Position numbers and translations under genes: made by a program. From an uncultured delta proteobacterium (GTDB taxonomy: Bacteria > Desulfobacterota > Binatia > UBA9968), in contig CAWJBB010000041.1 in the NCBI GenBank assembly GCA_963840855.1, positions 96,001 to 160,000 of the forward strand: DNA of 64,000 bases, in the 5' to 3' direction. This document shows, one piece after another, positions 10,344-44,707 of this stretch. Within the stretch, counting starts at the first letter, position 1; every line of letters begins with the position of its first letter. The notes under the pieces are model-generated. The model worked only from the letters and a program-made list of their open reading frames with translations. It did no database searches and had not been told where the DNA came from.

Positions 10344-10391
10344 TTGATTCCTTCTAGCGATTCGTTTGAGTACGCGGCCCGCTGGCGCTAG

Positions 10392-29275: not shown

Positions 29276-29304
29276 TTGAAAAATATATGCCTGTAAGTTT
29301 TAAT
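29276..29304 (+). promoter_or_regulatory. Sigma-70 promoter of the tRNA-Ser locus, copy 1
   Basis: TTGAAA-N17-TTTAAT; homologous to promoters at 31305 and 32490. Confidence 0.65.
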
Positions 29305-29337
29305 GACCGTGTCCCGCGTAAATCACTCAATTTCATT

Positions 29338-29354
29338 ATTGCGGAGGGGTGGGA
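29338..29354 (+). repeat. 5' stub of tRNA-Ser (17-bp direct repeat)
   Basis: ATTGCGGAGGGGTGGGA, identical to the start of the tRNA copies at 31372 and 32557. Confidence 0.75.
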
Positions 29355-29363
29355 AATTCTGAA

Positions 29364-29657
29364 ATGGACAAACTGACAGCGGAAGAGCGCCAGGAAATGT
29401 TACACCTCAAGAGATTTTTATCAAAAAATCCGTACGGCGGTCTTCTATCCGATGAACAGGTCTTGGCAATAATCCGCGATGCGGATGAACTGGTCAAAAT
29501 TCCTAGCTTCGTTGATGAAGGATTGCGCAAGGAAAAAGCACAATCACGGTCGGATCGCGAAAGGCTGAAACATCTATTGACACAAGGGAGGATGACAACT
29601 GAAGAATGGGGAGAGATGGCCGAACTCCTCGATCAGCGTTACCCGAAAGGATCCTAA
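29364..29657 (+). CDS. Hypothetical protein (97 aa)
   Basis: ORF starting just after the tRNA stub; helical charged composition. Confidence 0.45.
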   Translation: MDKLTAEERQEMLHLKRFLSKNPYGGLLSDEQVLAIIRDADELVKIPSFVDEGLRKEKAQSRSDRERLKHLLTQGRMTTEEWGEMAELLDQRYPKGS

Positions 29658-29685
29658 GCAAAGCACAAAGTAGACTGAAATTATG

Positions 29686-31065
29686 CGATCATCGCGTCTT
29701 TGTGTGGGTGATTTCAGGTCATTTTAGAGGGCAGACAGCATGCACGTGAGAATCTTCAGTCGCAGATATTCTTCATCGCGCAGGCCGTACGCGCGTCGTT
29801 GGATGACGCGGATCTTGTTGTTCAGTCCCTCCACGAAGCCAAGTGCGACCTTGTTCTCTGGCTTGCAATAAGCTGCAATCCCATCCCAATGACGATCAAT
29901 CATCTGAGCGAATTTCTCATAAGGTTTGAGCCGCTGCCATTTCAGAGAAGCGCGCCAGTTCTCGAAGAAGCGTCGCGCCCAGCCCTCGTGCTCGTAGCTC
30001 CACAGCTGACCGAAAGACTCCCGAAGCAGATAAGCGGTGTTGAGCCGCTTGTTAGCCGCGAGCAAGGTCTTGAGCGCTTGGCGTCCTTCCAAGGTCAGGT
30101 TCTCCCGGCGCGAAAGCAGGTTGTATTTCTGCCCTTTGATGTAGCGGCGCTGTTTACCAGTGAGCCGGGCATACTCGCTCTTTCGGACCTTGTCCAGCGC
30201 TTCACCCAGATGACGCAGCACATGGAACTTATCGAACAAAATGGCTGCTTGAGGGGCGTGGGCTTGAGTGGCGTTGCGAAATGGCTTCCACATGTCCATC
30301 ACCGCCAAGCGAATACGGCGCCGCTTGCTCGCTCCAAGCCAGTTATAAAATTCACCCATACTGGCCTCCGAGCGGTCCTGGCCACCAAACCAGATCGGCC
30401 GGCGACGAATGAGATCGCTGACCACGATGCGGTAGGTGTGCCGCTTTCTGATCGAGATTTCATCAATGCCAATCACCTTCGGTCCCGGCCTGCCCGCCTT
30501 TGCGAGCTGCGCAGTCATGTATTGTTTGTCGAGCTCCTTGACCGCGTGCCAGTCGAGCTTGAGCTCCTCGGCGATATCCTTGATCGTGGTAGAGCGACAG
30601 CGCCGCCCCACGTAATAGGCAAAGCGCTTGGTGTAAAACGGGTTGTCGGCCAAAAACTCCAACCGCTCGCGCTTCACTTTGCCGCAACTGCGGCACTCGA
30701 CACGGCGCACTTCGAAATTGAGATAAATGCGCATGTCGCCGCACGACAGATCGCGAACCTGCCGCCTGGTGCGGTCGTAGACAGCTCCAGTGAAGGGTGG
30801 CGCACAAACCGCAAAGCGTTTTTTTGAGCGTCGGGTAAGTGTAATGACACGCGCCTTGGGGTCACCGAAGACACCACGAAGACGAGTCCGGGGACAACAA
30901 CCCGGGAAACGATATGCGTCCAGCAAACCTTTGCGTTTGGTAGAAGTGGCCATCGAGAAATCATGCCAACTTTTCGCTCCACTTCAAACTCTGCAAAGCC
31001 AGTACTGGTGCGACTTTCAACCATGCTCAGCATCAAAAAACGCCCATACTCTTATGCGAAGATCG
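29686..31065 (-). mobile_element. ISL3-family insertion sequence (1380 bp)
   Basis: Imperfect IRs cgatcatcgcgtctttgtgtgggtg / cgatcttcgcataagagtatgggcg; 8-bp DR AAATTATG at 29678-29685 and 31066-31073. Confidence 0.88.
29724..30953 (-). CDS. ISL3-family transposase
   Basis: IGIDE, MDMWKPF, DKFH, EGLNNKIRVIQRRAYG. Confidence 0.92.
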   Translation of the reverse strand: MATSTKRKGLLDAYRFPGCCPRTRLRGVFGDPKARVITLTRRSKKRFAVCAPPFTGAVYDRTRRQVRDLSCGDMRIYLNFEVRRVECRSCGKVKRERLEFLADNPFYTKRFAYYVGRRCRSTTIKDIAEELKLDWHAVKELDKQYMTAQLAKAGRPGPKVIGIDEISIRKRHTYRIVVSDLIRRRPIWFGGQDRSEASMGEFYNWLGASKRRRIRLAVMDMWKPFRNATQAHAPQAAILFDKFHVLRHLGEALDKVRKSEYARLTGKQRRYIKGQKYNLLSRRENLTLEGRQALKTLLAANKRLNTAYLLRESFGQLWSYEHEGWARRFFENWRASLKWQRLKPYEKFAQMIDRHWDGIAAYCKPENKVALGFVEGLNNKIRVIQRRAYGLRDEEYLRLKILTCMLSAL

Positions 31066-31070
31066 AAATT

Positions 31071-31271
31071 ATGAAGCACCATTATAAAAAGTACGAGATA
31101 GAAACTTCAGCAAGGCAGCAGTCGAATAGCTGGTGGACAGGGAAAGCGGACATCAAGCCTTCGGTTGCTCGTGTCCGTGCCGTTCAAGTTATTGGGGACT
31201 TTATGAGCCAAATTAGTGCCGAGACTGCGGCGTTCGATCTAGCCAAGCACCAGATTGATAATGCACATTAA
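31071..31271 (+). CDS. Small hypothetical protein (66 aa); ATG lies in the ISL3 target duplication
   Basis: MKHHYKKYEIE...AETAAFDLAKHQID. Confidence 0.5.
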   Translation: MKHHYKKYEIETSARQQSNSWWTGKADIKPSVARVRAVQVIGDFMSQISAETAAFDLAKHQIDNAH

Positions 31272-31304
31272 GGCGAGCGCGAAGGTGGTGCGTGTGATTG
31301 CTGG

Positions 31305-31333
31305 TTGAAAAAGTTCCCGCCGTAAGTTTTAAT
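31305..31333 (+). promoter_or_regulatory. tRNA-Ser promoter, copy 2
   Basis: TTGAAA-N17-TTTAAT. Confidence 0.65.
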
Positions 31334-31371
31334 GCTCCTGTCCTGCCGAAGTCGTTGAAATCAAACATTGC

Positions 31372-31459
31372 GGAGGGGTGGGAGAGCGGTTTAATCCACC
31401 GGTCTTGAAAACCGGCGTCCATTCGTGGACCGCGAGTTCAAATCTCGCCCACCTCGCCA
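31372..31459 (+). pseudogene. Full-length tRNA-Ser(TGA) copy with disrupted acceptor stem
   Basis: Identical to 32557-32644 except the 3' acceptor strand CCACCTC instead of CCCCTCC (two mismatches plus one G-U against GGAGGGG). Confidence 0.8.
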
Positions 31460-31574
31460 ACACACAAAGGTCAGGAAAAAATAAATCCGTCGAGGATCTA
31501 GGCAAAGAATGAGCCGGACAGGTTCGTACCGATGCCGACCACCCAACCACTGCCTTCGGCTTGAAGGTCAAGTT

Positions 31575-31631
31575 GTTTAACGCCAAGCTCGGCGTGTGTG
31601 GCGAGCGTCGGGCTCGAGCGCAAAGTTAAGC
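31575..31631 (-). other. attC-like integron recombination site (57 bp)
   Basis: Minus strand GCTTAAC-TTTGC-GCTCGAGC ... GCCGAGC-TTGGC-GTTAAAC; antitoxin stop TAA lies inside RYYYAAC. Confidence 0.6.
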
Positions 31632-31811
31632 GGCTGACTGGTCAGTAGGTTCGGCGGTTTTCTCTGTCTTAATCAGCCGGTCCTGGTGCTGTTTCTGGAT
31701 CTCTATGTAGTAGGCCACTAACCGTGCAGGATCGTGATCAAAGCGCGCAGAGATGCGATGGCGCACTTCCCGGATCTCGTCGATTACTGGATCACTCTGA
31801 CTCTGTTTCAT
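31626..31811 (-). CDS. Small putative antitoxin partner of the PIN toxin
   Basis: DPVIDEIREVRHRIS.RFDHD motif typical of genes downstream of this PIN subfamily; overlaps toxin end. Confidence 0.65.
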   Translation of the reverse strand: MKQSQSDPVIDEIREVRHRISARFDHDPARLVAYYIEIQKQHQDRLIKTEKTAEPTDQSAA

Positions 31812-32286
31812 CACTACCTCCAAGCAGTTCCAAGGGCGTCACCAGCGCCGGCACAAAGAGACCAAGCAACACGTTCACGCGGTGAATGTGGCCGAATTTG
31901 TTCGCATTTGCCAAGTGCCGGCAATTCCATGTCACCAGAAAGTCGCATTTGTGATAGGACGCCAGCGCCAAGTGCAGCGCATCACCAGCGGGATTGGCAG
32001 GCATCACCCTGTGCCGGATATATGCCTGTACGATCTCGGCGATGGCCGGCTCAATGGGCAAGAGCGGCAGGTCACGAACGAGGGCAAGTCGCTGCGCACT
32101 GCGCTCCGGTATACCGCCGGTTAGCTCGTCCAGCACGGCTGGGCTGGTAACCAGCTCATAGCGGTCGGGCGCGCCTTCCCACCACTGCCGCGTCCACTCC
32201 CGGCGCGCCACGATATCAGGAGCGGACCGCGCTTCGTGGTAAAAGCTAGGGATCGTCGTCTCAACGTAAACGCGAGGTTTAGGCAT
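31792..32286 (-). CDS. PIN-domain (VapC-like) toxin
   Basis: VYVETTIPSF, S..VLDE, DALHLALA, DFLVTWNCRHLAN. Confidence 0.85.
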   Translation of the reverse strand: MPKPRVYVETTIPSFYHEARSAPDIVARREWTRQWWEGAPDRYELVTSPAVLDELTGGIPERSAQRLALVRDLPLLPIEPAIAEIVQAYIRHRVMPANPAGDALHLALASYHKCDFLVTWNCRHLANANKFGHIHRVNVLLGLFVPALVTPLELLGGSDETESE

Positions 32287-32489
32287 TGTTGATAAGATAC
32301 CGCACTTAATCTGCAAGGAACAGGGCTAATAAGCCGGAAAAATCATAGAGCGCGCATAGATGAATAATCGGAGGTGTCGCTGTGAGAGGCTGGCCGGTTA
32401 TCCACTTTGGGGCAGATGCTTTCGCTCATGAGGAAACCTTATTCGTCACACCCAAAATGCGCGCGCAAGATTGAGATTCCGGTTATTGG

Positions 32490-32518
32490 TTGTAAAAGTT
32501 TCCGCCGTAAGTTTTAAT
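32490..32518 (+). promoter_or_regulatory. tRNA-Ser promoter, copy 3
   Basis: TTGTAA-N17-TTTAAT directly upstream of the intact tRNA. Confidence 0.65.
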
Positions 32519-32556
32519 ACTCGTGTCCTGCCGAAGTTGTTGAAATCAAACATTGC

Positions 32557-32644
32557 GGAGGGGTGGGAGAGCGGTTTAATCCACCGGTCTTGAAAACCGG
32601 CGTCCATTCGTGGACCGCGAGTTCAAATCTCGCCCCCTCCGCCA
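32557..32644 (+). tRNA. tRNA-Ser(TGA), intact
   Basis: Acceptor GGAGGGG/CCCCTCC, anticodon arm CCGGT-CTTGAAA-ACCGG, long variable arm GTCCA-TTCG-TGGAC, T arm GCGAG-TTCAAAT-CTCGC, G73, encoded CCA. Confidence 0.95.
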
Positions 32645-32870
32645 ATTTTCAATACTGTCGCCCGTTGAATGCTACTTCCGGCAGAAGCGGTTTTCCGGAG
32701 AAGCCTTTCCGTTTGCATTCTGCGTAGCTCGCCTGAAACCGAGTTTCGGGTACCCAGCACCCGCGGCTTATCTTAATGCGATCTTCTCCTCAGTTTCCTC
32801 GCATGCCTCCCGTAGCGGTTTTCCTGTTACGAATGTAAAGAAACAAGACTTGACCCTCGGCGGCCATTTT
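32645..32870 (+). repeat. Conserved 226-bp left arm, copy 1
   Basis: Near-identical to 34528-34753 (about 8 substitutions by eye). Confidence 0.9.
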
Positions 32871-33042
32871 TAGCGATAACTCCCTGTTTTTTTGGCTTTT
32901 GCGTTTTTTCACTCCCTGAATTATTTTTCATGAATTGCAGAAAAGCGGTCTTTTTGCAGGCGAATTGATAAATGAATTGATAAATGGGACGGGTCAACGT
33001 GTCCACGAGCGCCGTCTAACCATCTCTAGAGAGAGGGCAAAC

Positions 33043-33669
33043 ATGCTTAAACAGTTTTGGCAATGGCTCAAGGGAAACCTAGCCTATGACGTCACCAAGT
33101 ACGTACTGGAGTCGAAACTAATCATGTCGGCGATTAGTGCGGGCGTCGCTGGATTTATTGTTGTCTGGAATAACTATGGTCCTTTGGTTCTTTTTTTTGC
33201 CATTCTTCTTGCCGCTAGCCTGGCAGCTAACCTCGCTAGTGATATTAGCGCCTGGCGAAAGGCCATAGTGCGTGGCAAGCGTCACTATTTAGTTCCGGCG
33301 ATACTGCTCGGAATCGGCTTGATAGGTTTGTGGTATTGGGGCGGCGGTTATGAAGTCACTCTTGACCAGGCAATGCCTAATCATTCGGCGCTTTTCAGAC
33401 AGTGGAATGCCATACCGCTGACGGAGGTCGACCAGAGAGTCTTCCATAAGACCACGGTCGTTCTTGACGGTAAGCGTTTCAAGAAAGATTGCGTCTTCGA
33501 CAATGTGCAGTTTGTTTTCAACGGTACCGCGCCATACAAGGTCGGTGGCTGTAGGATCATGGGTAAAAACTCCATCTCGACAGGGAATCCCTCGTTGGAG
33601 CAATTTGCAATTTTGTTTTTGCAATTACGTTTTTACAACCCAGGGGTTTCGCGCGAATTACTCAAGTAG
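33043..33669 (+). CDS. Hypothetical membrane protein (about 3 TM plus soluble C-terminal domain)
   Basis: Low-GC ORF with GAGGG RBS; hydrophobic segments. Confidence 0.55.
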   Translation: MLKQFWQWLKGNLAYDVTKYVLESKLIMSAISAGVAGFIVVWNNYGPLVLFFAILLAASLAANLASDISAWRKAIVRGKRHYLVPAILLGIGLIGLWYWGGGYEVTLDQAMPNHSALFRQWNAIPLTEVDQRVFHKTTVVLDGKRFKKDCVFDNVQFVFNGTAPYKVGGCRIMGKNSISTGNPSLEQFAILFLQLRFYNPGVSRELLK

Positions 33670-34180
33670 GGTGTTTCATCGAAACAAACGCCACGCCACG
33701 GAACGAAGCGCCGATAAGCAGCAACCGCACTTCGCGCAAGTAGGCTGGCTTTTCAGGAATTTTTCTTTGGAAATTCTGTTCATATCGTGGGTGGATTGGT
33801 GCATCTATATCGCCAGGCAAGGCGACCGGTCAAGCGAAAAAGTGGATGGTGCTCGGCGGGTCATTCGGACCTGCTGCTGGCTGAGGGCTAGTATGCTTCC
33901 TGACTTCCGGTCTATATCGTCCAGCGGGCGAACGGTCAAGGGACTCCTGCGCTTTCGGCCTCTTCCATGGTAAAATTATAGAATCTTTGCTGCGGGCGGA
34001 GGAGGTTGGGGATGAGTAACAACGTGGAAATAATTGGGTTGCCGCTTCAGTCGATTCTGGTGATGGGCGAGGCGATACGATGAGCAGCATCAAGGCAACC
34101 TGCAAAGCAGCCACCAGCATCGAGCTGGCAGAACTTCAGCCGCTCCAAGGAAACCTGAAGGAATTGTCCCTCGCGGCGAC

Positions 34181-34297
34181 GTGAACCTTTGCCCCGACAT
34201 CGACCGACTGTGCTATGAGTGTCTCGTCAAAGCATTCAGCGCCCGACTTATCGTGCATCCAGCCGAGCCGTCAGGCGAGCCTACGTGTTGCCGTTAG
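34181..34297 (+). CDS. Cys-rich micro-ORF, copy a (38 aa)
   Basis: VNLCPDIDRLCYECLVKAFSARLIVHPAEPSGEPTCCR; many synonymous differences versus copies at 41473 and 42986. Confidence 0.45.
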   Translation: MNLCPDIDRLCYECLVKAFSARLIVHPAEPSGEPTCCR

Positions 34298-34299
34298 CT

Positions 34300-34467
34300 C
34301 AAAAGCTGCTTGGTTTCGGCAGTACAACCGTAGTACAAAACGCGTGTTGGAATGAGCCTATCTGTGGCGGAATGGGGAAACATGAAAGCGAAGGGAAAGC
34401 GCAAGAAAAACAGACGTTTAGAGCTTAAATCGTTATTTCTCATGCGCTTACGATACCCCTAGATAAG
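34300..34467 (+). repeat. Conserved right arm, copy 1, with AGTACAA x2 at 11-bp period
   Basis: Homologous to 44485-44648; AGTACAA at 34321 and 34332. Confidence 0.75.
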
Positions 34468-34527
34468 CGGTCTTGAAAACCGGCGTCCATTCGTGGACCG
34501 CGAGTTCAAATCTCGCCCCCTCCGCCA
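34468..34527 (+). repeat. tRNA-Ser 3' fragment (anticodon arm to CCA), att-like
   Basis: Identical to 32585-32644. Confidence 0.92.
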
Positions 34528-34753
34528 ATTTTCAATACTGTCACCCGTTCAATGCTACATCCGGCAGAAGCGGTTTTCCGGCGAAGCCTTTCCGTTTGCA
34601 TTCTGCGTAGCTCGCCTGAAACCGAGTTTCGGGTACCCAGCAGCCGCGGCTTATCTTAATGCGATCTTCTCCTCAGTTTCCTAGCATGCCTCCCGTAGTG
34701 GTTTTCCTGTTACGAATGTAAAGAAACAGGACTTGACCCTCGGCGGCCATTTT
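34528..34753 (+). repeat. Conserved 226-bp left arm, copy 2
   Basis: See 32645-32870. Confidence 0.9.
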
Positions 34754-34968
34754 GTCGGAAGCGCGACCTTTCGTTACCGCATGGGCGTCGACTCCGGCAA
34801 CTACCAGGTGACATCGAGCGTTGTCATCAATTCAGGCCCGTCTATCGTCGATGTATTGAACTACGGGCGGTTCACCGACTTTTCCTTCAGCGCTGCTAAC
34901 TCCCAAGTGCCGACGTACTATATATTTGGAGAACCGATACGGTAATTAACCGACAAACATGAAAATGT

Positions 34969-35388
34969 CTAGCTGACCAATTCTAAGAAGTGTGGCCCTT
35001 CTTTGAACCGAGGATTGTTCCTAATCATATCGCGAGCTACGTCAAAAAAATCGCTCGGCCCGTAAACGAACCTATGCGAAAAGGCGACCTGGAGTGAATT
35101 GAGATTAAGCACGTTGTCAGGATTCATATTTATCGGTGTTCCATCTGTCATCCCAGCAATGAACTGTTCAATTAGAGCATCTCGTTGACCGAGCATTGTT
35201 TTAACTTCTGGACGAACTCCCCGCAATTCGACGTAGCGCTCATAGGCTTTAGTGAACTCTTCTTCATGACTTGGGCAAAGAATTCCAAGAGAGAACTTAG
35301 CACTAAGCGGCATGTAAATTTCGATACCTTCAACACCCAAACCAAGATTTCCGGCGAGCCCAAACGTTTTTTTGTTGGTGCCGAACAT
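34969..35388 (-). pseudogene. C-terminal fragment resembling DUF4238 proteins
   Basis: G.EIYMPLS.KFSL and V..LN.LQ..FS.RFVY; no N-terminal half present. Confidence 0.5.
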
Positions 35389-35491
35389 TATGGTGGGAAA
35401 TGTTCATCGGTTCCCTGTGGATCAGGTGATTACTTGGCTGCAAGGTGCGTGCGGTTAGGCACTTCTAAGGTAAGTTCCCGGCAGCTCGTGA

Positions 35492-36184
35492 TTACTGGAG
35501 TGCGCGGTTTGAGGTTCTCGTAGTGCCACTCTTACCGGGAAAGTCTTCAAACAATGTCTTGATCATTGTAGGTAACACAACCGACACCTGCTCGCTTGAA
35601 CCGCTGCTAACGACTTTCCCTTCATAAAGTTTCTTCATCTTGCTCTCAGCGAGCGCGTTCTTATCAAGCAGTTCAAACGTCAAAAACCGCGTGTAATGAG
35701 TTTGGGAAGTGACGCCGCTACCGACAACGCCGTACGTAGGCGTATAGGTGGTGCTTCCAGAATAGGTGCCAAAAGTCCCGTAGTTTTGAACAGTTCCGTA
35801 GGTTGTGCTTGAGGATACGCCGGTTTGGCCAAATATCGGATAGGACGAAACGACCTGCTTACCCGTATCAATCCCATAGGAAAAGACAACGATCAAGTCA
35901 GCCTCTGCTGATGGGGTCTCCTTGAAACCTTTTGCATCTAGTTCTTGCCTGACAACATTTTCGTAGGATCGATGTTCAAGACTATGCTCCTGTTCTTTCA
36001 ACGGAATCATTGCATAAGTGGTTCCAGCAAAGCCCTGTGGAAGATCATGAAAGACCACAACTTGAGAGCGTACCATCGTACAACCCGATTGCACTACTAT
36101 CAGAAATATCGCTACTAACAGAGTCCTCGCAGTGGCACTCTGCTGGCCGGAGCAGTCCAGCGTGATTCCGGGTAGTTTTCTCAT
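35492..36184 (-). CDS. DUF4136-like lipoprotein
   Basis: Lipobox QSGC, SLEHRSYE..VRQEL..KGF, ADLIV.FSY, YEGKVVSSG, MIKTLFEDFPG. Confidence 0.7.
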   Translation of the reverse strand: MRKLPGITLDCSGQQSATARTLLVAIFLIVVQSGCTMVRSQVVVFHDLPQGFAGTTYAMIPLKEQEHSLEHRSYENVVRQELDAKGFKETPSAEADLIVVFSYGIDTGKQVVSSYPIFGQTGVSSSTTYGTVQNYGTFGTYSGSTTYTPTYGVVGSGVTSQTHYTRFLTFELLDKNALAESKMKKLYEGKVVSSGSSEQVSVVLPTMIKTLFEDFPGKSGTTRTSNRALQ

Positions 36185-37184: not shown

Positions 37185-37565
37185 ATGTCGCGCAAAACTG
37201 AAACTGCCGCCGATGTCGAGCAATGGTTCCAAAAACAAGCCGCAGGGCTGTGGCCGGCTGCGCTGGGGTCGTTGAGCCTGCGGCGAAGTCCCTGCGTGCG
37301 CGAACACTGCGCAGCCTGCCGCTCGGGCGAACAGCACCCCAGTCATATCCTATACGTGCGCATTAAAGGACGCCGCTTTGCGGTTTACATCCCAGAGCCA
37401 TTGGTCCCAGAGATACGGCTTAGCCTCGACAACGGCCGTGTTCTTCAGGAGCTGCTGCATCAAACCGCTCTTCGATATACCAAAGCCCTCAAGCATCAAA
37501 GGACCACAAAGATTCAAAAGATCAACCATGACAAGAGTCGTCGAACCGCAAGTCAGCTTCGCTGA
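37185..37565 (+). CDS. IS accessory ORF (Zn-ribbon, DUF6788-like)
   Basis: GSLSLRRSPC...C.AC..GEQH; C-terminus extended by a 1-nt difference versus copy 2. Confidence 0.7.
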   Translation: MSRKTETAADVEQWFQKQAAGLWPAALGSLSLRRSPCVREHCAACRSGEQHPSHILYVRIKGRRFAVYIPEPLVPEIRLSLDNGRVLQELLHQTALRYTKALKHQRTTKIQKINHDKSRRTASQLR

Positions 37566-38946
37566 TCTGGAATTTCTCACTCAGGGGATCGATCTCGACC
37601 CGATTCTCAAGAGGATGTCCGACTTCCTCGATTATCGGCCACAGATCATCGAGCCGGTGCGCCAAGATCTTCAGCTGGGTCTGAAAAAGCCTGCCACCGG
37701 CCGCACAGCCATGACCCCGGCGCAGGTGCTTCGGTCGCTGATCCTGATGCGAGTGAAGAACTGGGACTATCGGGAACTCAGCGAACGAATCGCTGACGGA
37801 TACACGTTGCGCCGATTCACGGGTTTTTACAGCCGGCGCGTACCCAAGCATGACGCTTTCAATCGGGCCTTTAATAAACTGCACCCCAAAACCATACAAG
37901 CCATCAATGACTTGGTCCTTAAAGCTGCCGTCGATCTGGGACTGGAGGACGGCAAGAGACTGCGCGTCGATACGACGGTCACCGAAACCGATATCCATCA
38001 TCCAACCGATAATACTTTGCTCTGGGATGTAGTGCGCGTCCTGACGCGGCTCATCGATCGTCTCGGAAAACTTCTTCCCAATGGGATCGATAACTTTACT
38101 AACCGCACACGCTGTGCACGCCGTCGCATGCAAGAGATCCAACGCATGACAGCGAGGCAACGCCACACCCAGCAAAAGGGTAAATATCGCCAACTCATCG
38201 GGACCACCGAGCAGGTCGTCCAAAATGCCCGAGGGGTGCTCGAAAAGACCAAAGATCAATGCGCTGTTGACCTGCTGGACGACATTATCATTAGCGAGCT
38301 TCGAAGAAAGATCGATCACTACTGCCAACTCGGCACCCGCGTCATCGATCAGAGCAGCCGGCGCGTGCTCAAGGGAGAGCAGGTTCCAACCGAGGAGAAA
38401 ATCTACTCGATCTTTGAACCCCACAGTGATCTGATCAAGCGGGGGAAAGTACAAAAGCCGATGGAGTTTGGCCACAAGATCTTTCTCGCTGAAAGTGCCC
38501 GCGGTTTGATCACCCAGTACCGCGTGCTTGAAGGTAATCCCTCCGATCACATCCACGTCACGCCGTCGCTGAAGCGTCATCAGGAGACTTTCGGTTTGGC
38601 TCCCGATTGGTACACTGGTGACCGCGGCTTTTTCAGCGCTGCGAACATCAAAGCATGCCAGGATAGCACTGTGAAGCTCGTCTGCATTCCGCAGTGCGGT
38701 GGCAAAAGGACCTCCCAACGCGAAGCGCTCGAAAAGAGCTCAGAGTTCAAGAAAGGACAACGCTTCCGCGCAGGCATTGAGGGCCGCATATCCGTGCTCT
38801 TTCGCGGCCGCGGCATGAAGCGCTGTTTGGCCGAGGGACCTGAGCGCTTTGAGATGTTGGTCGGCGCCGCTGTGCTTACCAACAACCTCATGAACATCGC
38901 TCACCTGTTAAACCAAAAGAACAAACGGCTACGACGAGCGGCGTAG
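37528..38946 (+). CDS. DDE transposase (IS5-like/ISNCY)
   Basis: RVDTTVTETDIHHPTD, EFGHK, GDRGF, RFRAGIEGRIS. Confidence 0.9.
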   Translation: MTRVVEPQVSFADLEFLTQGIDLDPILKRMSDFLDYRPQIIEPVRQDLQLGLKKPATGRTAMTPAQVLRSLILMRVKNWDYRELSERIADGYTLRRFTGFYSRRVPKHDAFNRAFNKLHPKTIQAINDLVLKAAVDLGLEDGKRLRVDTTVTETDIHHPTDNTLLWDVVRVLTRLIDRLGKLLPNGIDNFTNRTRCARRRMQEIQRMTARQRHTQQKGKYRQLIGTTEQVVQNARGVLEKTKDQCAVDLLDDIIISELRRKIDHYCQLGTRVIDQSSRRVLKGEQVPTEEKIYSIFEPHSDLIKRGKVQKPMEFGHKIFLAESARGLITQYRVLEGNPSDHIHVTPSLKRHQETFGLAPDWYTGDRGFFSAANIKACQDSTVKLVCIPQCGGKRTSQREALEKSSEFKKGQRFRAGIEGRISVLFRGRGMKRCLAEGPERFEMLVGAAVLTNNLMNIAHLLNQKNKRLRRAA

Positions 38947-39248
38947 CCACTGTCGCTCTCAAACGTTCATTCGACGCTCCCTGGGCGTAGTCTTTTCTGC
39001 CATCACTGCGCGGTCCATCGAACACCCCACACGACTCTTTGCTGTCCACTTTCAGCTCAAAATGATAGAACTATGTCAGAGAAAAAACTTGGCCCATGTC
39101 GCACCCGTAAGATTTTTGCGAGTTTCGCGACAGAAACTAGCTAGTTTCTGTCGCGAAACTCGCAACTCACTGCTAAATCAAGAATTTTTTACTTCTTAGT
39201 TTCATTTTTTACTTGACAAGCATGTATGCCTTATGGCACACATAGAAC

Positions 39249-39596
39249 ATGTCGCGCAAAACTGAAACTGCCGCCGATGTCGAGCAATGGTTCCAAAAAC
39301 AAGCCGCAGGGCTGTGGCCGGCTGCGCTGGGGTCGTTGAGCCTGCGGCGAAGTCCCTGCGTGCGCGAACACTGCGCAGCCTGCCGTTCGGGCGAACAGCA
39401 CCCCAGTCATATCCTATACGTGCGCATTAAAGGACGCCGCTTTGCGATTTACATCCCAGAGCCATTGGTCCCAGAGATACGGCTTAGCCTCGACAACGGC
39501 CGTGTTCTTCAGGAGCTGCTGCATCAAACCGCTCTTCGATATACCAAAGCCCTCAAGCATCAAAGGACCACAAAGATTCAAAAGATCAAACCATGA
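39249..39596 (+). CDS. IS accessory ORF (DUF6788-like)
   Basis: ATGA overlap with the transposase. Confidence 0.7.
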   Translation: MSRKTETAADVEQWFQKQAAGLWPAALGSLSLRRSPCVREHCAACRSGEQHPSHILYVRIKGRRFAIYIPEPLVPEIRLSLDNGRVLQELLHQTALRYTKALKHQRTTKIQKIKP

Positions 39597-41011
39597 CAAG
39601 AGTCGTCGAGCCGCAAGTCAGCTTCGCTGATCTGGAATTTCTCACTCAGGGGATCGATCTCGACCCGATTCTCAAGAGGATGTCCGACTTCCTCGATTAT
39701 CGGCCACAGATCATCGAGCCGGTGCGCCAAGATCTTCAGCGGGGTCTGAAAAAGCCTGCCACCGGCCGCACAGCCATGACCCCGGCGCAGGTGCTTCGGT
39801 CGCTGATCCTGATGCGAGTGAAGAACTGGGACTATCGGGAACTCAGCGAACGAATCGCTGACGGATACACGCTGCGCCGATTCACGGGTTTTTACAGCCG
39901 GCGCGTACCCAAGCATGACGCTTTCAATCGGGCCTTTAATAAACTTCACCCCAAAACCATACAAGCCATCAATGACTTGGTCCTTAAAGCTGCCGTCGAT
40001 CTGGGACTGGAGGACGGCAAGAGACTGCGCGTCGATACGACGGTCACCGAAACCGATATCCATCATCCAACCGATAATACTTTGCTCTGGGATATAGTGC
40101 GCGTCCTGACGCGGCTCATCGATCGTCTCGGAAAACTTCTTCCCAATGGGATCGATAACTTTACTAACCGCACACGCTGTGCACGGCGTCGCATGCAAGA
40201 GATCCAACGCATGACAGCGAGGCAACGCCACACCCAGCAAAAGGGTAAATATCGCCAACTCATCGGGACCACCGAGCAGGTCGTCCAAAATGCCCGAGGG
40301 GTGCTCGAAAAGACCAAAGATCAATGCGCTGTTGACCTGATGGACGACATTATCATTAACGAGCTTCGAAGAAAGATCGATCACTACTGCCAACTCGGCA
40401 CCCGCGTCATCGATCAGAGCAGCCGACGCGTGCTCAAGGGAGAGCAGGTTCCAACCGAGGAGAAAATCTACTCGATCTTTGAACCCCACAGTGATCTGAT
40501 CAAGCGGGGGAAAGTACAAAAACCGATGGAGTTCGGCCACAAGATCTTTCTCGCTGAAAGTGCCCGCGGTTTGATCACCCAGTACCGCGTGCTTGAAGGT
40601 AATCCCTCCGATCACATCCACGTCACACCGTCGCTGAAGCGTCATCAGGAGACTTTCGGTTTGGCTCCCGATTGGTACAGTGGTGACCGCGGCTTTTTCA
40701 GCGCTGAGAACATCAAAGCATGCCAGGATAGCACTGTGAAGCTCGTCTGCATTCCGCAGTGCGGTGGCAAAAGAACCTCCCAACGCGAAGCGCTCGAAAA
40801 GAGCTCAGAGTTCAAGAAAGGACAACGCTTCCGCGCAGGCATTGAGGGCCGCATATCCGTGCTCTTTCGCGGCCGCGGCATGAAGCGCTGTCTGGCCGAG
40901 GGACCTGAGCGCTTTGAGGTGTTGGTCGGCGCCGCTGTGCTTACCAACAACCTCATGAACATCGCTCACCTGTTAAACCAAAAGAACAAACGGCTACGAC
41001 GAGCGGCGTAG
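39593..41011 (+). CDS. DDE transposase (IS5-like/ISNCY)
   Basis: As copy 1 with a few substitutions. Confidence 0.9.
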   Translation: MTRVVEPQVSFADLEFLTQGIDLDPILKRMSDFLDYRPQIIEPVRQDLQRGLKKPATGRTAMTPAQVLRSLILMRVKNWDYRELSERIADGYTLRRFTGFYSRRVPKHDAFNRAFNKLHPKTIQAINDLVLKAAVDLGLEDGKRLRVDTTVTETDIHHPTDNTLLWDIVRVLTRLIDRLGKLLPNGIDNFTNRTRCARRRMQEIQRMTARQRHTQQKGKYRQLIGTTEQVVQNARGVLEKTKDQCAVDLMDDIIINELRRKIDHYCQLGTRVIDQSSRRVLKGEQVPTEEKIYSIFEPHSDLIKRGKVQKPMEFGHKIFLAESARGLITQYRVLEGNPSDHIHVTPSLKRHQETFGLAPDWYSGDRGFFSAENIKACQDSTVKLVCIPQCGGKRTSQREALEKSSEFKKGQRFRAGIEGRISVLFRGRGMKRCLAEGPERFEVLVGAAVLTNNLMNIAHLLNQKNKRLRRAA

Positions 41012-41472
41012 CCACTGTCGCTCTCAAACGTTCATTCGACGCTCCCTGGGCGTAGTCTTTTCTGCCATCACTGCGCGGTCCATCGAACACCCCACACGAC
41101 TCTTTGCTGTCCACTTTCAGCTCAAAATGATACAACTATGTCAGAGAAAAAACTTGACCCATGTCGCACCCGTAAGATTTTTTGCGAGTTTCGCGACAGA
41201 AACTAGCTAGGGCGTGCGCCATCCACGTGTTGCTTTCCGCGTCCAGCGCTTCTGCGATGGTCCCATTTTAAATTTTTGCTTTCTGAGCGTAGTTGAGCAA
41301 TTCAGGTGCCAGTTTTTTGCGCAACGGGTTTTTACAGGCAAATATGAAAACTGCGGGGCTACCACTATCGCCGCGCGGCTATAGCAAACTGGAAGGTCGT
41401 CGTAATCAACGCAGGAATGAGAAAGGGTTTTTCGTATCGCCGCACGGCGATAGCATTGTCCCTCGCGGCGAC

Positions 41473-41580
41473 GTGAACCTCTGCCCCGACATTGAGCGTC
41501 TCTGCCACCGGTGCCTGGTGAAAGCATTCAGCAGCCGCGTGGTCGTGCGTCCGCCCGTGCCGGACGACGAGCCGACGTGA
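41473..41580 (+). CDS. Cys-rich micro-ORF, copy b (may start further upstream)
   Basis: VNLCPDIERLCHRCLVKAFSSRVVVRPPVPDDEPT. Confidence 0.45.
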   Translation: MNLCPDIERLCHRCLVKAFSSRVVVRPPVPDDEPT

Positions 41581-41830: not shown

Positions 41831-42238
41831 CTATAAGCCCGGAAGAAACAATAAAACGACAATGAGCACGCTCTCCCCAACGAGTAACAAAAGCGCTGCT
41901 TTCTCTCTGCAGCGAACATTGCGGTGCTTACGGCTCTCAGTTTCGATATTCGCTTTTCTCTGCTCTTCAGTCAGTTCAGGCCCAGAAAACATCCTGCCAA
42001 TGTCGAGGTAGCGTTCCTTCGTGACCCAGAAATTCCATATCATGAGCAAAAGCGATACAAGGCAACAAGCGACAAGAAGCAAGGAAATCGGCCTGTTTAC
42101 GGCTGGAGAGAGCAACAACAAAATCGAAAACGCGGTTAACATGATGCCGTTAACAGTCAGGAGAGCGTTCCAAAGTTGGAAGTTGGATTCGCCAGCCTTG
42201 TTTACGAAATGCTGCAGAACCGGACTGAAGTTCGCCAT
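41831..42238 (-). CDS. Hypothetical 3-TM membrane protein
   Basis: Two N-terminal and one C-terminal hydrophobic helices. Confidence 0.55.
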   Translation of the reverse strand: MANFSPVLQHFVNKAGESNFQLWNALLTVNGIMLTAFSILLLLSPAVNRPISLLLVACCLVSLLLMIWNFWVTKERYLDIGRMFSGPELTEEQRKANIETESRKHRNVRCREKAALLLLVGESVLIVVLLFLPGL

Positions 42239-42284
42239 ACTAACTTGGGTAACGCCTCAACGGTTCGGTCAGTCATGCGGCGGC

Positions 42285-42683
42285 CTATTTCCGCCCTACG
42301 CATGGAAAAGCGTTCCCCAGGCTTTCGAGAGCGACATGGAAGAAATCCGCGTGAAGACGTTGCGGATTTTTCTCCGCATAGGCCACATAGATAGAGATAA
42401 GTTGTGTTAGTTTGCTGTTTGATGGGGCACAGACCCCATGAATTGGGCCAGTGTCGTCGGCTTGCACGATTACCTTCTGAATAACACCGAACGCTCCCCA
42501 ACAAATTCCAGTTTCGTAATTCGTTGGGAACCTCACATAATCACCCGTAACTTCGGCCTTCGCTATCAGTCTACATGCTGAGAGCAGCTCTTCCGCAGAA
42601 AAGGCAAGAGCGGATTTGGAACCGCTTGCGAAAAAAAAGACGAGCAAGAACAGTCGAAGCGCTGTTGCCACTCGCATTTCCAT
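42285..42683 (-). CDS. Rap1a/Tai-like immunity protein
   Basis: Signal peptide, ELLSAC, C.G....I, VCAP, YAEKNPQRLH, AL...FPC pattern. Confidence 0.7.
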   Translation of the reverse strand: MEMRVATALRLFLLVFFFASGSKSALAFSAEELLSACRLIAKAEVTGDYVRFPTNYETGICWGAFGVIQKVIVQADDTGPIHGVCAPSNSKLTQLISIYVAYAEKNPQRLHADFFHVALESLGNAFPCVGRK

Positions 42684-42985
42684 GATCTTTTTTTGGGCCA
42701 AACCCAGTGAGTATTACTGACCAGTAATATTACCCGATCCCAAGAATCAAGGTTCAGGCAAGATTTAACTTTTTAGTCAACGAGTTGTCAATCATTTTTC
42801 GTTCGCGTCCATTCGGGTGCGTTTGACGGCACCGGAGGTCCTCGTCGTGGGTTTCTGCGAACCGACGCGCCAGGGGGTCGATCTTGTTTCCCAGGCCATG
42901 CTGCCTCGTCCTTCGTCCCCGCGACAACACTTTTTCCATTGACCTCCGCCCTGAGGAAACCTGAAGAATTGTCCCTCGCGGCGAC

Positions 42986-43102
42986 GTGAACCTTTGCCCC
43001 GATGTCGAGCGTCTGTGCCATGAGTGCCTCGTCAAAGCGTTCAGCGCCAGCTTGGTCGTGCTTCCGCCTGAGCCGGACGACGCGCCGACGTGCAGCTGTT
43101 GA
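42986..43102 (+). CDS. Cys-rich micro-ORF, copy c (38 aa)
   Basis: VNLCPDVERLCHECLVKAFSASLVVLPPEPDDAPTCSC. Confidence 0.45.
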   Translation: MNLCPDVERLCHECLVKAFSASLVVLPPEPDDAPTCSC

Positions 43103-43668
43103 ATCTCGGTTTAAAAAGGCACTCTCCTCGTAAAATCACCAAAACTGCCGTCATAACGTGGTTATAAATGGCGTTGGAGCGCGGAAAAAAAATTCTTGGT
43201 GCGCGCGCAACAACGGACCCAGGATCGCAACTGCCCTTTGGGCCGGACATCAGCCCCGAGAAAACGAGAAGTCTTTACCGGGCAAAATCAAAAAACGGTG
43301 GACGATGTTCGGGCCGATAAGGTGGGCGAGTCGCGATGGGGCTGTCGCAGGCGCAACTGGGACGCCTGCTGAAGTATGCGGGGCCTAACACCATCTCAAG
43401 AAAAGAGCGCGGTGAGCACTCGGTTCAGCATGTCGAGGCGATTGCAGTGATGTACCTGGCGACGCTCGCGCTGTGCAGAGAGGAGGTAAAAATGGAGTGG
43501 CCTTGAGGAACGCCGTGCGTCTTGAGCGGCGTCACACCACGCATATTCCGCTGCTCACCTGGCGCACGACGCAATGACAACGCAAACTCAACGGCGCGGC
43601 TCTTGATGATTTCGTGGTCGTACCCTTCATTTTTTCCCGTTCGTTCACGTCTTTCTCCTTTTCTTTTG

Positions 43669-44100
43669 TCACGGGCTTTCACGGTCTGGTTTCTGCCTCA
43701 GTTCCACGACCCAAAAGCCTGTAATGTTCACAGCAAGCCAAACAAGCCCCCCGAGCAGCTTGCTTCCCGTGAAGTATGCGAGGATTTCAGCCGCCACACC
43801 ACCCAAGATGGAGAAAGCGACCAACTCCAACATTGCGACCGCGAGCCATTTGAGAAAGGTCAAACCCCGCTTCCAACAGAACCAAATCACGAAAGCGTAA
43901 GAGGCGCTCATCACAGCGAACAGCTGTACGCGGATTAATGGGTCCCACCCTGATGGGTCCCGCCACACGACAATGATGAGGGGGGGCATGAGGAAACACC
44001 ACCATCCGACCACCCCCGCTCCATACCTCTTCGCAGCTCTGCCAAGCGCGTTAAATACCCGCCGAGAACCTCGCCAGTGGGAACTGCCTAATGCGTCCAT
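43669..44100 (-). CDS. Hypothetical 4-TM membrane protein
   Basis: GGAGG RBS; hydrophobic helices. Confidence 0.45.
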   Translation of the reverse strand: MDALGSSHWRGSRRVFNALGRAAKRYGAGVVGWWCFLMPPLIIVVWRDPSGWDPLIRVQLFAVMSASYAFVIWFCWKRGLTFLKWLAVAMLELVAFSILGGVAAEILAYFTGSKLLGGLVWLAVNITGFWVVELRQKPDRESP

Positions 44101-44175
44101 CTCGCCTCCCTCTGCTTCGCCTCTCGCTTTCACCCATAGCGCATCAATCAGTTTTTTGTCTGTCCTCGGTTTCGG

Positions 44176-44379
44176 TTACTTCCTCTCCTTTTTGCCCTGG
44201 CTGCGGCTTTGGGGGTGTCTATCACGGATGATTTTTTGGGCCTTGTCCACAAATGCCTTCTCCGCTTTGTCTTTTGTGGGAAATGGCTCGGTTTCCAACT
44301 TGACGCTTGGGTTAGATTCGAGGTAGCCCCGAGCGACCCAACTTTCAGTCCCTGCGACCCGTACCACATCATACATAAA
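44176..44379 (-). CDS. Small hypothetical protein
   Basis: GGAG RBS before MYDVVRV; plausible composition. Confidence 0.35.
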   Translation of the reverse strand, partial: FMYDVVRVAGTESWVARGYLESNPSVKLETEPFPTKDKAEKAFVDKAQKIIRDRHPQSRSQGKKERK

Positions 44380-44484
44380 TGTTTCTCCCCTGTGTTTGTA
44401 GGGGATTTGCGTGTGTGAATCTCTAGCCATAATACACCCTTTATAGTATAGCGCTCCGAGAAAAAAACCTCTTTGGTCCTATCC

Positions 44485-44648
44485 AAAGGCTGTGGTTTCC
44501 GCAGTACAATCACAGTACAAAACGCGTGTTGTAATGTGCCTATTTGTGGCGAAATGTGGTGGAATGAGGAAATACGAAAAGCGAGGAAAAGCGCAGGGAA
44601 ACAGAGCGTAACTCATGTTTTCCCTGCGCCGATGCCCTCCTAGGCAAG
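44485..44648 (+). repeat. Conserved right arm, copy 2, AGTACAA x2 at 11-bp period
   Basis: AGTACAA at 44503 and 44514 followed by aacgcgtgttg.aatg.gcctat.tgtggcg, as at 34321. Confidence 0.75.
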
Positions 44649-44707
44649 CGGTCTTGAAAACCGGCGTCCATTCGTGGACCGCGAGTTCAAATCTCGTCCC
44701 CTCCGCC
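44649..44707 (+). repeat. tRNA-Ser 3' fragment, outer att-like boundary
   Basis: One mismatch to 32585-32643; ends CCG rather than CCA. Confidence 0.9.

What the first reader, a model, noticed from the sequence alone, without database searches (positions are those of the whole stretch)
29276..44707. Integrase-free cassette array growing on both sides of a single tRNA-Ser gene
Seen: five tRNA-Ser-derived segments, all co-oriented (5' stub 29338, damaged full copy 31372, intact 32557, 3' fragments 34468 and 44649). They delimit four cargo units of about 2.0, 1.1, 1.9 and 10.2 kb. Upstream units end in promoter plus tRNA; downstream units are framed by shared left and right arms. Cargo is small toxin-antitoxin, immunity, membrane and secreted genes, and no tyrosine or serine recombinase ORF is present. 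Established: tRNA 3' duplications mark integrase att sites and tandem islands are known. Inference: a family of miniature non-autonomous integrative elements mobilised in trans, acting as an integron-like gene-capture platform. This is the best candidate for an undescribed system here.
Basis: partly seen in the sequence, partly recalled or inferred. Interest (0 to 1): 0.85.

Follow-up and report, generated by a model that had tools for sequence, protein, structure and literature searches.

The report
Decayed island array at tRNA-Ser
A serine tRNA gene in a soil bacterium is flanked on both sides by leftovers of several mobile islands that inserted there one after another and then lost their integrase genes, which is a known way for genomes to collect foreign DNA.

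Summary
One intact tRNA-Ser(tga) gene (32557-32644) sits among four co-oriented derivatives: a promoter+12-nt stub, a full copy with a damaged acceptor stem, and two 61-63-nt 3' fragments. No tyrosine or serine recombinase lies in the array. The "cassettes" are not uniform, though. Unit 1 is about 0.5 kb plus an ISL3 element, which contigs from four other metagenomes lack. The 10.2-kb unit holds a head-to-tail ISNCY dimer, two internal right-arm remnants, and a backbone gene cut off exactly at the left arm. Its relatives lie in a second locus (contig C44) beside a truncated integrase. In related genomes the same tRNA carries islands on either side. Their fragments end or start at the anticodon loop, and a tyrosine integrase usually lies next to the tRNA. 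One relative has the empty site. Best reading: tandem accretion of islands of both polarities, followed by decay into integrase-less, att-flanked remnants like CIMEs. Trans-mobilisation is untested, and no matching helper integrase was found in this genome. The integron analogy fails. This is a new member of a known kind and of modest interest.

The parts
29273..29354 (+). Displaced native 5' end: about 70 nt of tRNA promoter region plus tRNA nt 1-12 (stub)
   Evidence: 73% identity to the two other promoter arms, with the same left boundary at TGGTTGAAAA. Soil-run contigs cover 29197-29363.
29355..31269 (.). Upstream unit A: about 0.5 kb of remnant cargo (ORF 29349-29657, no family) interrupted by an ISL3 element
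   Evidence: Contigs from 4 of 4 runs laid join 29676 to 31065.
29677..31064 (-). ISL3-family insertion sequence (transposase 29724-30953), flanked by a 9-nt direct repeat GAAATTATG
   Evidence: DDE_Tnp_ISL3 at 1.5e-68; empty site seen in 4 of 4 runs; the repeat read from the sequence.
31270..31460 (+). Promoter arm plus full tRNA-Ser(tga) copy 2, with a damaged acceptor stem
31461..32455 (-). Upstream unit B: PIN-domain ORF 31792-32316 and a 65-aa ORF 31626-31823 (toxin-antitoxin-like pair)
   Evidence: PIN at 1.4e-7, 32.5 bits.. Contigs of runs X1 and X5 cover it at about 95-100%.
32456..32644 (+). Promoter arm plus the intact, presumably functional tRNA-Ser(tga) (32557-32644)
   Evidence: (58.1 bits). 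The second tga-anticodon copy in the assembly (31372-31459) has a damaged acceptor stem.
32645..32870 (+). Left arm copy 1 (element-derived DNA directly 3' of the tRNA). It has a + strand terminator-like hairpin at 32696-32711 and a - strand one at 32851-32866.
   Evidence: 91% to metagenome contig L027. No significant RNA fold.
32871..34139 (+). Cargo of downstream unit E1: one 244-aa ORF with hydrophobic segments (32935-33669), no family
   Evidence: 33907-34017 is 81% identical to C46:110409-110529.
34140..34297 (+). Right arm part R-a, copy 1: conserved Cys-rich micro-ORF (34181-34297, 38 aa)
   Evidence: (codon-position bias 58/31/83).
34300..34467 (+). Right arm part R-b, copy 1 (contains the direct motif AGTACAA twice)
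34468..34530 (+). tRNA-Ser 3' fragment 1 (anticodon stem-loop to 3' end), 63/63 identical to the gene
34531..34753 (+). Left arm copy 2
34754..34945 (+). 5'-truncated backbone gene (last 63 codons of a roughly 109-aa family) fused to the end of the left arm
   Evidence: (63% to C44 ORF 12042-12371). Of 8 database homologues, 6 keep the conserved N-terminal 46 residues that are missing here.
34969..36184 (-). E2 cargo: 139-aa ORF (weak DUF4238 match) and a DUF4136 protein (35492-36184)
36887..37033 (-). Inverted remnant (first 49 codons) of the ORF that lies head-to-head with the decayed integrase on C44. It abuts the IS dimer.
   Evidence: 88% amino-acid identity.
37074..41210 (+). Two ISNCY-family IS copies head to tail (37074-39144 and 39138-41210, 99% identical)
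   Evidence: (NF033593, 410 bits against a cut-off of 325). Other copies lie on C65, C72 and C30.
41267..41455 (.). 189-nt dispersed repeat (95% to C50:117710-117896, 94% to C46:110021-110191)
41452..41580 (+). R-a copy 2 (internal; no R-b or tRNA fragment follows)
41831..42701 (-). Cargo: 135-aa hydrophobic ORF and a Rap1a-like immunity protein with an N-terminal hydrophobic segment (42285-42701)
   Evidence: Rap1a at 1.4e-9, 38.7 bits against a cut-off of 27.7..
42946..43102 (+). R-a copy 3 (internal)
43669..44430 (-). Cargo: 154-aa hydrophobic ORF and an 84-aa ORF, no family
44484..44648 (+). R-b copy 2 (78% to copy 1)
44649..44711 (+). tRNA-Ser 3' fragment 2: the displaced native 3' half, followed by the native neighbour
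   Evidence: In relatives the tRNA or its fragment lies 6-170 nt from the beta-CASP gene.
44869..46254 (+). Native right flank: beta-CASP metallo-hydrolase gene, here readable only across at least two frame changes

Best explanation
The anticodon loop of tRNA-Ser(tga) serves as an attachment site for two kinds of tyrosine-integrase islands.

- 3'-type islands bring a replacement 3' half of the tRNA. They push the old 3' half downstream.
- 5'-type islands bring a promoter plus a replacement 5' half. They push the old promoter and 5' half upstream.

In this genome several such islands inserted one after another on both sides (tandem accretion). They then decayed. Integrase genes were deleted, an ISL3 element and an ISNCY dimer moved in, and segments were inverted or lost.

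What remains is 15.3 kb (29355-44648) of att-flanked, integrase-less remnants. These are equivalent to CIMEs (cis-mobilizable elements). Small, hard-to-lose genes such as a toxin-antitoxin-like pair, an immunity-like gene and membrane proteins persist in them.

Shown here: the repeats, the anticodon-loop boundaries, integrase-bearing equivalents and an empty site in relatives, and the truncated backbone gene. Inferred: the order of events, the loss of integrases, and that these units are not moving at present.
For: 1. The repeats are real, co-oriented and correctly placed: 5' pieces upstream and 3' pieces downstream.

2. The 3' fragments begin at the anticodon stem. In relatives every 5' fragment examined ends at tRNA position 38-41, in or just after the anticodon loop (5 of 5 aligned: G016, G018, G024, G027, G002).

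3. The native frame is known. G007 has the tRNA 171 nt from the beta-CASP gene, which is the empty site. In G082 and G013 a fragment lies next to that gene.

4. Integrase-bearing equivalents exist.
   - A tyrosine integrase abuts the tRNA 5' end in 8 of the 10 other genomes where I examined that DNA. Yes: G016, G018, G024, G027 (fragment), G087, G121, G117, G082. No: G002, G093.
   - G019 has a 6.9-kb 3'-type island with an integrase converging on the tRNA.

5. In this same genome, tRNA-Ser(gga) and tRNA-Ser(cga) carry 10-kb and 65-kb 3'-type islands with integrases. tRNA-Arg(cct) has a 5' fragment 19 kb upstream with an integrase abutting the gene, and also a 3' fragment 11 kb downstream.

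6. There is direct evidence of decay in E2.
   - The gene at 34754-34945 lacks the conserved N-terminal 46 residues of its family, and the cut falls exactly at the end of the left arm.
   - 36887-37033 is an inverted 49-codon remnant that abuts the IS dimer.
   - Intact versions of both lie on C44 beside a truncated, frame-broken integrase, in an element that ends in R-a, R-b and a tRNA fragment.
   - Two orphan R-a copies inside E2 suggest that further units have collapsed.

7. The ISL3 insertion is secondary. Its empty site is seen in contigs of 4 of 4 runs laid.

8. The process is documented in print.
   - CIME definition and accretion: PMC5704250, passages read.
   - Arrays separated by partial tRNAs with degenerate remnants: bioRxiv 10.1101/2020.12.28.424599, passages read.
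   - 159 of 3919 Islander islands have 5' fragments, and 125 tandem arrays are listed: PMC4383910, passages including Table 1.
Against: - No integrase remnant at all is detectable inside the array (best tblastn E 0.04). Loss of integrases is therefore inferred, except for the indirect E2-C44 link.
- Upstream unit B is flanked by a complete promoter+tRNA repeat, not by a half tRNA ending at the anticodon loop. The stub holds only 12 tRNA nt. Neither is the textbook product of an anticodon-loop crossover. Both need an extra assumption: an element carrying a whole tRNA copy, or a later deletion.
- The left arm ends at the same place (within 10-20 nt) before three unrelated cargoes: E1, E2 and L027. 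Run X10 also holds a contig that leaves the window at 34750. This fits modular ends with variable cargo at least as well as random decay does.
- Integrase-less short units between the tRNA and a 3' fragment recur in G082 (2.1 kb) and G054 (0.8 kb). Small units without an integrase may therefore be more than accidents.
- The C44 element is not at a tRNA gene, and its left end was not found.
Confidence: 0.68

Rival explanations
1. The units are a family of miniature non-autonomous integrative elements: conserved attP-like arms, 1-3 cargo genes and no integrase. An integrase encoded elsewhere inserts and excises them, so the tRNA acts as a gene-capture platform.
For: - The left arm is 96-97% conserved between E1 and E2, and 91% conserved in metagenome contig L027. 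Unrelated cargo starts at the same boundary each time. One further contig, in run X10, diverges at 34750.
- E1 is just arm, one gene, then R-a, R-b and the fragment, and its flanking 63-nt repeats are identical.
- R-a behaves as a conserved coding micro-ORF at the right end of cargo blocks. Differences by codon position are 58/31/83. Synonymous versus non-synonymous codon changes are 58/72, against 24/109 and 21/104 in the control frames.
- Integrase-less short units also occur at this tRNA in G082 and G054.
- G002 has a 108-nt 5'-type repeat at 100% identity with no integrase on either of the two contigs that carry it.
Against: - No integrase in the genome lies beside similar arms. Arm matches are confined to the array and to C44, whose integrase is truncated.
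- The integrases at the other two tRNA-Ser genes face different anticodon stem-loops.
- Arms and the R-a peptide occur in 0 of 122 other genomes of the order. An R-b pattern scan found 0 hits in the metagenome and genome collections. An exact left-arm pattern found 1 metagenome contig and 0 genome contigs.
- The E2 arm junction truncates a gene.
- No integron hallmarks are present.
Confidence: 0.17
2. The repeats come from RecA-dependent events and not from site-specific recombination. Either circles carrying a tRNA/arm copy inserted Campbell-style, or unequal crossing-over occurred between tRNA copies, followed by divergence.
For: - Unit B is flanked by a 191-nt repeat that covers the promoter and the whole tRNA.
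- The E1/E2 repeat is 286 nt long and runs far beyond any core site.
- No integrase is present.
Against: - Fragment ends in relatives cluster at the anticodon loop and lie beside integrases.
- The two 3' fragments here start at the anticodon stem, with the first stem base changed. That is typical of attR sites.
- Cargo between the repeats is unrelated, so simple duplication is excluded.
Confidence: 0.1
3. Assembly artefact: repeats or strain mixtures in a metagenome-assembled genome were stitched into a false array.
For: - The genome is a 93-contig assembly with 8.3% estimated contamination.
- C44 and C45 are 98% identical haplotypes.
Against: - The array lies inside a 333-kb contig.
- The repeats differ by diagnostic substitutions and each has unique flanks.
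- Parts of units A and B and the junction 29197-29363 are reproduced by independent contigs from other runs.
- Relatives show the same kinds of structure.
Confidence: 0.04

Closest known systems
CIMEs and tandem accretion of ICE/IME-type islands (ICESt1/ICESt3 relatives in streptococci; reviewed in PMC5704250, passages read)
   Same: Elements that have lost their integration genes but keep attL and attR. They stack in tandem at the end of a target gene through successive site-specific integrations. The composite arrays contain decayed members.
   Different: - No functional partner element, and no integrase of any kind, is left in this array, so cis-mobilisation has no visible engine.
- The target is the anticodon loop of a tRNA, and growth is on both sides.
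- No conjugation or mobilisation genes were seen.
- Excision was not tested.
Tycheposon-filled genomic islands of Prochlorococcus (bioRxiv 10.1101/2020.12.28.424599, passages read)
   Same: [quoted passage not shown] A figure legend there uses tRNA-Ser(TGA) as its example of tRNA gene labels.
- Older integrations are pushed away from the gene.
- Remnants such as fragmented integrases and extra partial tRNAs are scattered in the island.
   Different: - No integrase or replication module is present in this array.
- The arms and the R-a micro-ORF have no relatives outside this lineage.
- The host is a large-genome soil bacterium carrying many IS elements.
tDNA islands with 5' fragments in the Islander database (PMC4383910, passages including Table 1 read)
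   Same: The regenerated gene plus a displaced 5' fragment marks islands that supply the 5' part of the tRNA. Crossover is centred on the anticodon.
   Different: - Islander counts only 159 of 3919 islands as 5'-type, and it requires an integrase in every island of a tandem array. An array like this one would be filtered out.
- In this order, 5' fragments of tRNA-Ser(tga) seem commoner than 3' ones: about 14 genomes against about 5-7, out of 122.
Integrons
   Same: Only the idea of a fixed site that accumulates small cargo units.
   Different: - No intI-type integrase and no attI/attC sites. The boundaries are tRNA fragments plus arms of 160-330 nt.
- Cargo lies on both strands with no common promoter.

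Membership tests
tDNA-integrated genomic island (Islander criteria) | An intact tRNA gene plus cognate end fragments in the same orientation, with 5' fragments upstream and 3' fragments downstream | tested here: met
tDNA-integrated genomic island (Islander criteria) | Crossover at a canonical sublocation (here the anticodon loop) | tested here: inconclusive
   Met for both 3' fragments, which start at the anticodon stem, and for 5 of 5 relatives' 5' fragments aligned. Not met for the 12-nt stub or for the full-length copy 2.
tDNA-integrated genomic island (Islander criteria) | An integrase gene in each island of a tandem array | tested here: not met
   Searches find no tyrosine or serine recombinase in 29273-44711.
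CIME (cis-mobilizable element) | attL and attR retained | tested here: met
   Each unit is bounded by tRNA-derived direct repeats.
CIME (cis-mobilizable element) | Derived from an integrase-bearing element by loss of its integration and transfer genes | tested here: inconclusive
   E2 holds a truncated and an inverted remnant of a backbone that on C44 accompanies a decayed integrase. There is no such evidence for E1 or for units A and B.
CIME (cis-mobilizable element) | Can be excised or moved by the integrase of an adjacent or incoming related element | not testable with these tools
   No raw reads of the source sample were available. The runs laid were contigs from other samples.
Integron | A resident intI tyrosine recombinase next to attI | tested here: not met
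Integron | Co-oriented, mostly promoterless cassettes, each ending in an attC site | tested here: not met
   Cargo ORFs lie on both strands. Boundaries are tRNA fragments and long arms. No dedicated attC search was run.
ISL3-family insertion sequence (29677-31064) | ISL3 DDE transposase, short target duplication, and an empty site elsewhere | tested here: met
   (231.6 bits). (9-nt direct repeat). (joint 29676>31065 in 4 of 4 runs).
ISNCY-family insertion sequence (37074-41210, two copies) | Transposase above the NCBIfam cut-off, terminal inverted repeats, and other copies in the genome | tested here: met
   (410 bits against 325). (28-29-nt inverted ends). (copies on C65, C72, C30).

The most novel reading that the evidence does not exclude
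E1-type units are genuine miniature integrative cassettes. Each would consist of a left arm, one cargo gene, the Cys-rich R-a micro-protein and R-b, with the tRNA half serving as attP. They would hijack a helper integrase. R-a would be the element's own small recombination or adaptor factor. Together with promoter-carrying 5'-type units, they would let a single essential tRNA gene collect cargo from both ends.
Probability: 0.12. Interest if true: 0.6.

Novelty: new member of a known kind. Interest (0 to 1): 0.3.

Why it matters
The array is a clear, well-bounded example of how a single tRNA gene in a large soil genome gathers and then erodes foreign DNA from both directions. It also shows that island finders which demand an integrase per island, such as Islander (PMC4383910), will miss arrays of this kind.

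Two points may deserve follow-up by people who study integrative elements. First, islands that supply a promoter and the 5' half of the tRNA predominate at tRNA-Ser(tga) in this order. Second, very small integrase-less units recur between the tRNA and its displaced 3' half. Neither changes current understanding unless mobility in trans is shown.

Tried and rejected
- **Arms in other genomes.** A BLAST of R-a+R-b+fragment+left arm against 123 genomes of the order matched only the tRNA part outside G000. The R-a peptide was found in 1 of 123 genomes, G000 itself. Protein searches with it returned only short ORFs over a dispersed repeat, or itself.
- **Exact-pattern scans.** The R-b motif gave 0 hits in the metagenome and genome contig collections. 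A left-arm 26-mer gave 1 metagenome contig and 0 genome contigs.
- **Plasmid and phage collections.** Only the tRNA matched.
- **Sequencing runs.** No run held more than 0.20 of the sampled words, and all were contigs. When laid, the E1 and E2 cargo had no cover. That says nothing about absence or mobility.
- **Left arm as a structured RNA.** z-scores were -0.9 and -0.1, and no Rfam family matched beyond the tRNA.
- **Left-arm homologue beside the C44 integrase.** Local alignment scored no better than shuffles.
- **Promoter scan.** The tool did not call the TTGAAA-N17-TTTAAT that I read in the promoter arms, because its rule needs an A at position 2 of the second hexamer.
- **Cargo annotation.** Most cargo ORFs have no Pfam or NCBIfam family. 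The ESM Atlas gave only weak hits to unnamed clusters for the E1 protein. The two small ORFs in the G054 mini-unit and those on L027 looked toxin-antitoxin-like to me but have no Pfam match, so I make no such claim.

Full report
**Observation**

The window is contig C41:96001-160000 of a 7.1-Mb, 93-contig assembly. ARAGORN finds two tRNA genes in it, both tRNA-Ser(tga), at 31372-31459 and 32557-32644. They are the only tga-anticodon tRNA-Ser genes among 39 tRNA genes in the assembly.

- A stub at 29273-29354: 70 nt of upstream DNA at about 73% identity, plus tRNA nt 1-12.
- A near-complete duplicate of promoter plus tRNA: 31270-31460 against 32456-32645, 89% over 191 nt. tRNA nt 1-78 are identical.
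- Two 3' fragments: 34468-34530 (63/63 identical) and 44649-44711 (61/63).
- A 226-nt left arm present twice at 96-97%.

Copy 2 has a damaged acceptor stem. It scores 44.9 bits in Rfam against 58.1 for the intact gene.

The right arm has two parts. R-b (34300-34467) recurs at 44484-44648 at 78%. R-a (34140-34295) does not recur there, but it occurs twice inside the 10.2-kb unit (alignment).

**No recombinase, but three transposases**

- None of the 21 PF00589 matches in the genome lies in the window.
- Neither of the 2 PF00239 matches is on C41.
- None of 41 ORFs scanned is a recombinase.
- Eight integrase queries taken from relatives and from C44 give no tblastn hit better than E = 0.04.

The array does hold an ISL3 transposase (29724-30953) and two ISNCY transposases. 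Contigs from four soil or bog runs of four different studies join 29676 directly to 31065. The ISL3 element is therefore a late insertion, and "unit 1" is only about 0.5 kb of other DNA. The two ISNCY copies (37074-39144 and 39138-41210) account for 4.1 kb of the "10.2-kb unit".

**What relatives show**

In the family, the usual context is serS, then tRNA-Ser(tga), sometimes one gene, then a beta-CASP hydrolase. G007 has the tRNA 171 nt from that gene, which is an empty site.

Upstream islands flanked by a displaced 5' fragment occur in G016, G018, G024 and G027. The fragment ends at tRNA position 38-41, in or just after the anticodon loop. A tyrosine integrase gene ends within about 10-60 nt of the tRNA 5' end.

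Taking all the genomes where I looked at that DNA, an integrase abuts the tRNA in 8 of 10. It does in G016, G018, G024, G027, G087, G121, G117 and G082. It does not in G002 and G093. I chose these ten because one search showed extra tRNA pieces in them.

G019 has a 6.9-kb downstream island with a 3' fragment (positions 33-88) and an integrase converging on the tRNA.

Across the order, the tRNA query matched 98 of 123 genomes. Extra 5' fragments occur in about 14 other genomes. Two of these, G063 and G084, are unpublished, and the count without them is 12. A further 5'-like piece in G052 lies on the wrong side and was dropped. Extra 3' fragments occur in about 5-7 genomes, some at contig ends. 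G000 has the most pieces of any genome in the set.

**The same genome shows the intact process elsewhere**

- tRNA-Ser(gga) has a 3' fragment 10 kb away and tRNA-Ser(cga) has one 65 kb away. Each has an integrase next to the tRNA.
- tRNA-Arg(cct) has a 5' fragment 19 kb upstream with an integrase abutting the gene, and also a 3' fragment 11 kb downstream.

Two-sided growth is therefore not unique to tRNA-Ser(tga).

**Evidence of decay**

The arms R-a, R-b and a 59-nt tRNA fragment also occur on contig C44 (73-75% identity). There they end an element that carries an N-terminally truncated, frame-broken tyrosine integrase.

Two pieces of that element's backbone are present in E2:
- The last 63 codons of a roughly 109-aa protein sit at 34754-34945, starting exactly where the left arm ends (63% identity). 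Six of eight database homologues keep the conserved N-terminal 46 residues that are missing here.
- The first 49 codons of the ORF next to the C44 integrase lie inverted at 36887-37033, against the IS dimer (88% identity).

Together with the two orphan R-a copies, this marks E2 as a collapsed, rearranged descendant of integrase-bearing islands.

**What still favours modular elements**

- The left arm is followed by unrelated DNA at the same boundary in E1, in E2 and in a 1.2-kb metagenome contig. That contig (L027) is 90.6% identical over promoter, tRNA and arm.
- E1 is minimal: arm, one gene, R-a, R-b.
- R-a shows the substitution pattern of a coding sequence. Differences by codon position are 58/31/83. 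Synonymous versus non-synonymous codon changes are 58/72, against 24/109 and 21/104 in the other frames. These figures come from six non-independent pairs of four copies.
- Short integrase-less units lie between the tRNA and a 3' fragment in G082 (2.1 kb) and G054 (0.8 kb).
- G002 has a 108-nt promoter+5' repeat at 100% identity, with no integrase on the two contigs that carry it. The island is split by a contig break.

**Against current mobility**

- Arms match nothing else in the genome.
- Arms and the R-a peptide match none of the 122 other genomes of the order.
- They match no plasmid or phage record.
- The integrases at the other tRNA-Ser genes face different anticodon stem-loops.
- Excision could not be tested. 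No run held more than a fifth of the sampled words, and all runs were stored as contigs.

**Comparison and verdict**

The structure fits what the literature describes:
- Tandem accretion and CIMEs: PMC5704250, passages.
- Arrays of elements separated by partial tRNAs, with degenerate remnants: bioRxiv 10.1101/2020.12.28.424599, passages.
- 5'-fragment islands, a minority in Islander at 159 of 3919: PMC4383910, passages including Table 1.

It fails the integrase criterion of an Islander island, and it fails every integron criterion tested. I did not search the literature for other cases of both polarities at one tRNA gene, so I make no claim about that.

The array is real and tidy. It is a new member of a known kind. 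I put the probability that its units are actively trans-mobilised cassettes at about 0.12-0.17.

Noticed in passing
G000 contig C44 (locus L001) 10079-14956: A second element ends in R-a, R-b and a 59-nt tRNA-Ser 3' fragment, but it lies among metabolic genes and not at a tRNA gene. Its tyrosine integrase is truncated and frame-broken. From 15962 onward, C44 is 97-98% identical to the start of contig C45, so two strains are mixed in the assembly.
   Followed up: partly
G000 contig C46 99372-130159 (locus L035 covers 104000-120000): tRNA-Arg(cct) at 118687-118762 has a 5' fragment 19 kb upstream, with an integrase and an HTH_17 gene abutting the tRNA. It also has a 3' fragment 11 kb downstream near another integrase. 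This is two-sided island growth with the integrases still present.
   Followed up: partly
window 37074-41210: Two 99%-identical ISNCY-family elements lie head to tail with no spacer; their ends overlap by 7 nt. Further copies are on C65, C72 and C30.
   Followed up: partly
window 44869-46254: The beta-CASP metallo-hydrolase gene next to the native 3' fragment can only be read across at least two frame changes, whereas relatives have one ORF of 467-483 aa. This is either a pseudogene or assembly indels.
   Followed up: partly
window 41267-41455; also C50:117710-117896 and C46:110021-110191: A 189-nt dispersed repeat (94-95% identity) is also picked up as short 'proteins' on metagenome contigs (P0003-P0009). 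It may be a small non-coding mobile repeat.
   Followed up: no
G000 C41:218983-229177 and C50:48087-113220 (outside the window): Classic 3'-type islands of 10 kb and 65 kb lie at tRNA-Ser(gga) and tRNA-Ser(cga). Each has an integrase converging on the tRNA and a fragment starting at position 32-33.
   Followed up: partly
Loci L038 (G082:C621) and L037 (G054:C1): These are integrase-less mini-units between tRNA-Ser(tga) and a displaced 3' fragment. G082 has 2.1 kb with a VanZ-like gene, plus an integrase on the 5' side. G054 has 0.8 kb with two small ORFs of no known family.
   Followed up: partly
Locus L032/L021 (G002:C256): The DNA upstream of the G002 tRNA-Ser holds a terminase-nuclease fragment, a TIR/ThsB-like gene, WD40, SRAP and CinA genes, and a 785-aa ORF. 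It looks like a defence-flavoured island with no integrase on the contig.
   Followed up: no
window 29273-29342, 31302-31371, 32487-32556: All three promoter arms begin at the same TGGTTG(A/T)AAA and read TTG(A/T)AA-N17-TTTAAT about 38 nt before the mature tRNA 5' end. Conservation therefore starts exactly at a likely -35 box. This is my own reading; the scan tool did not call it.
   Followed up: partly
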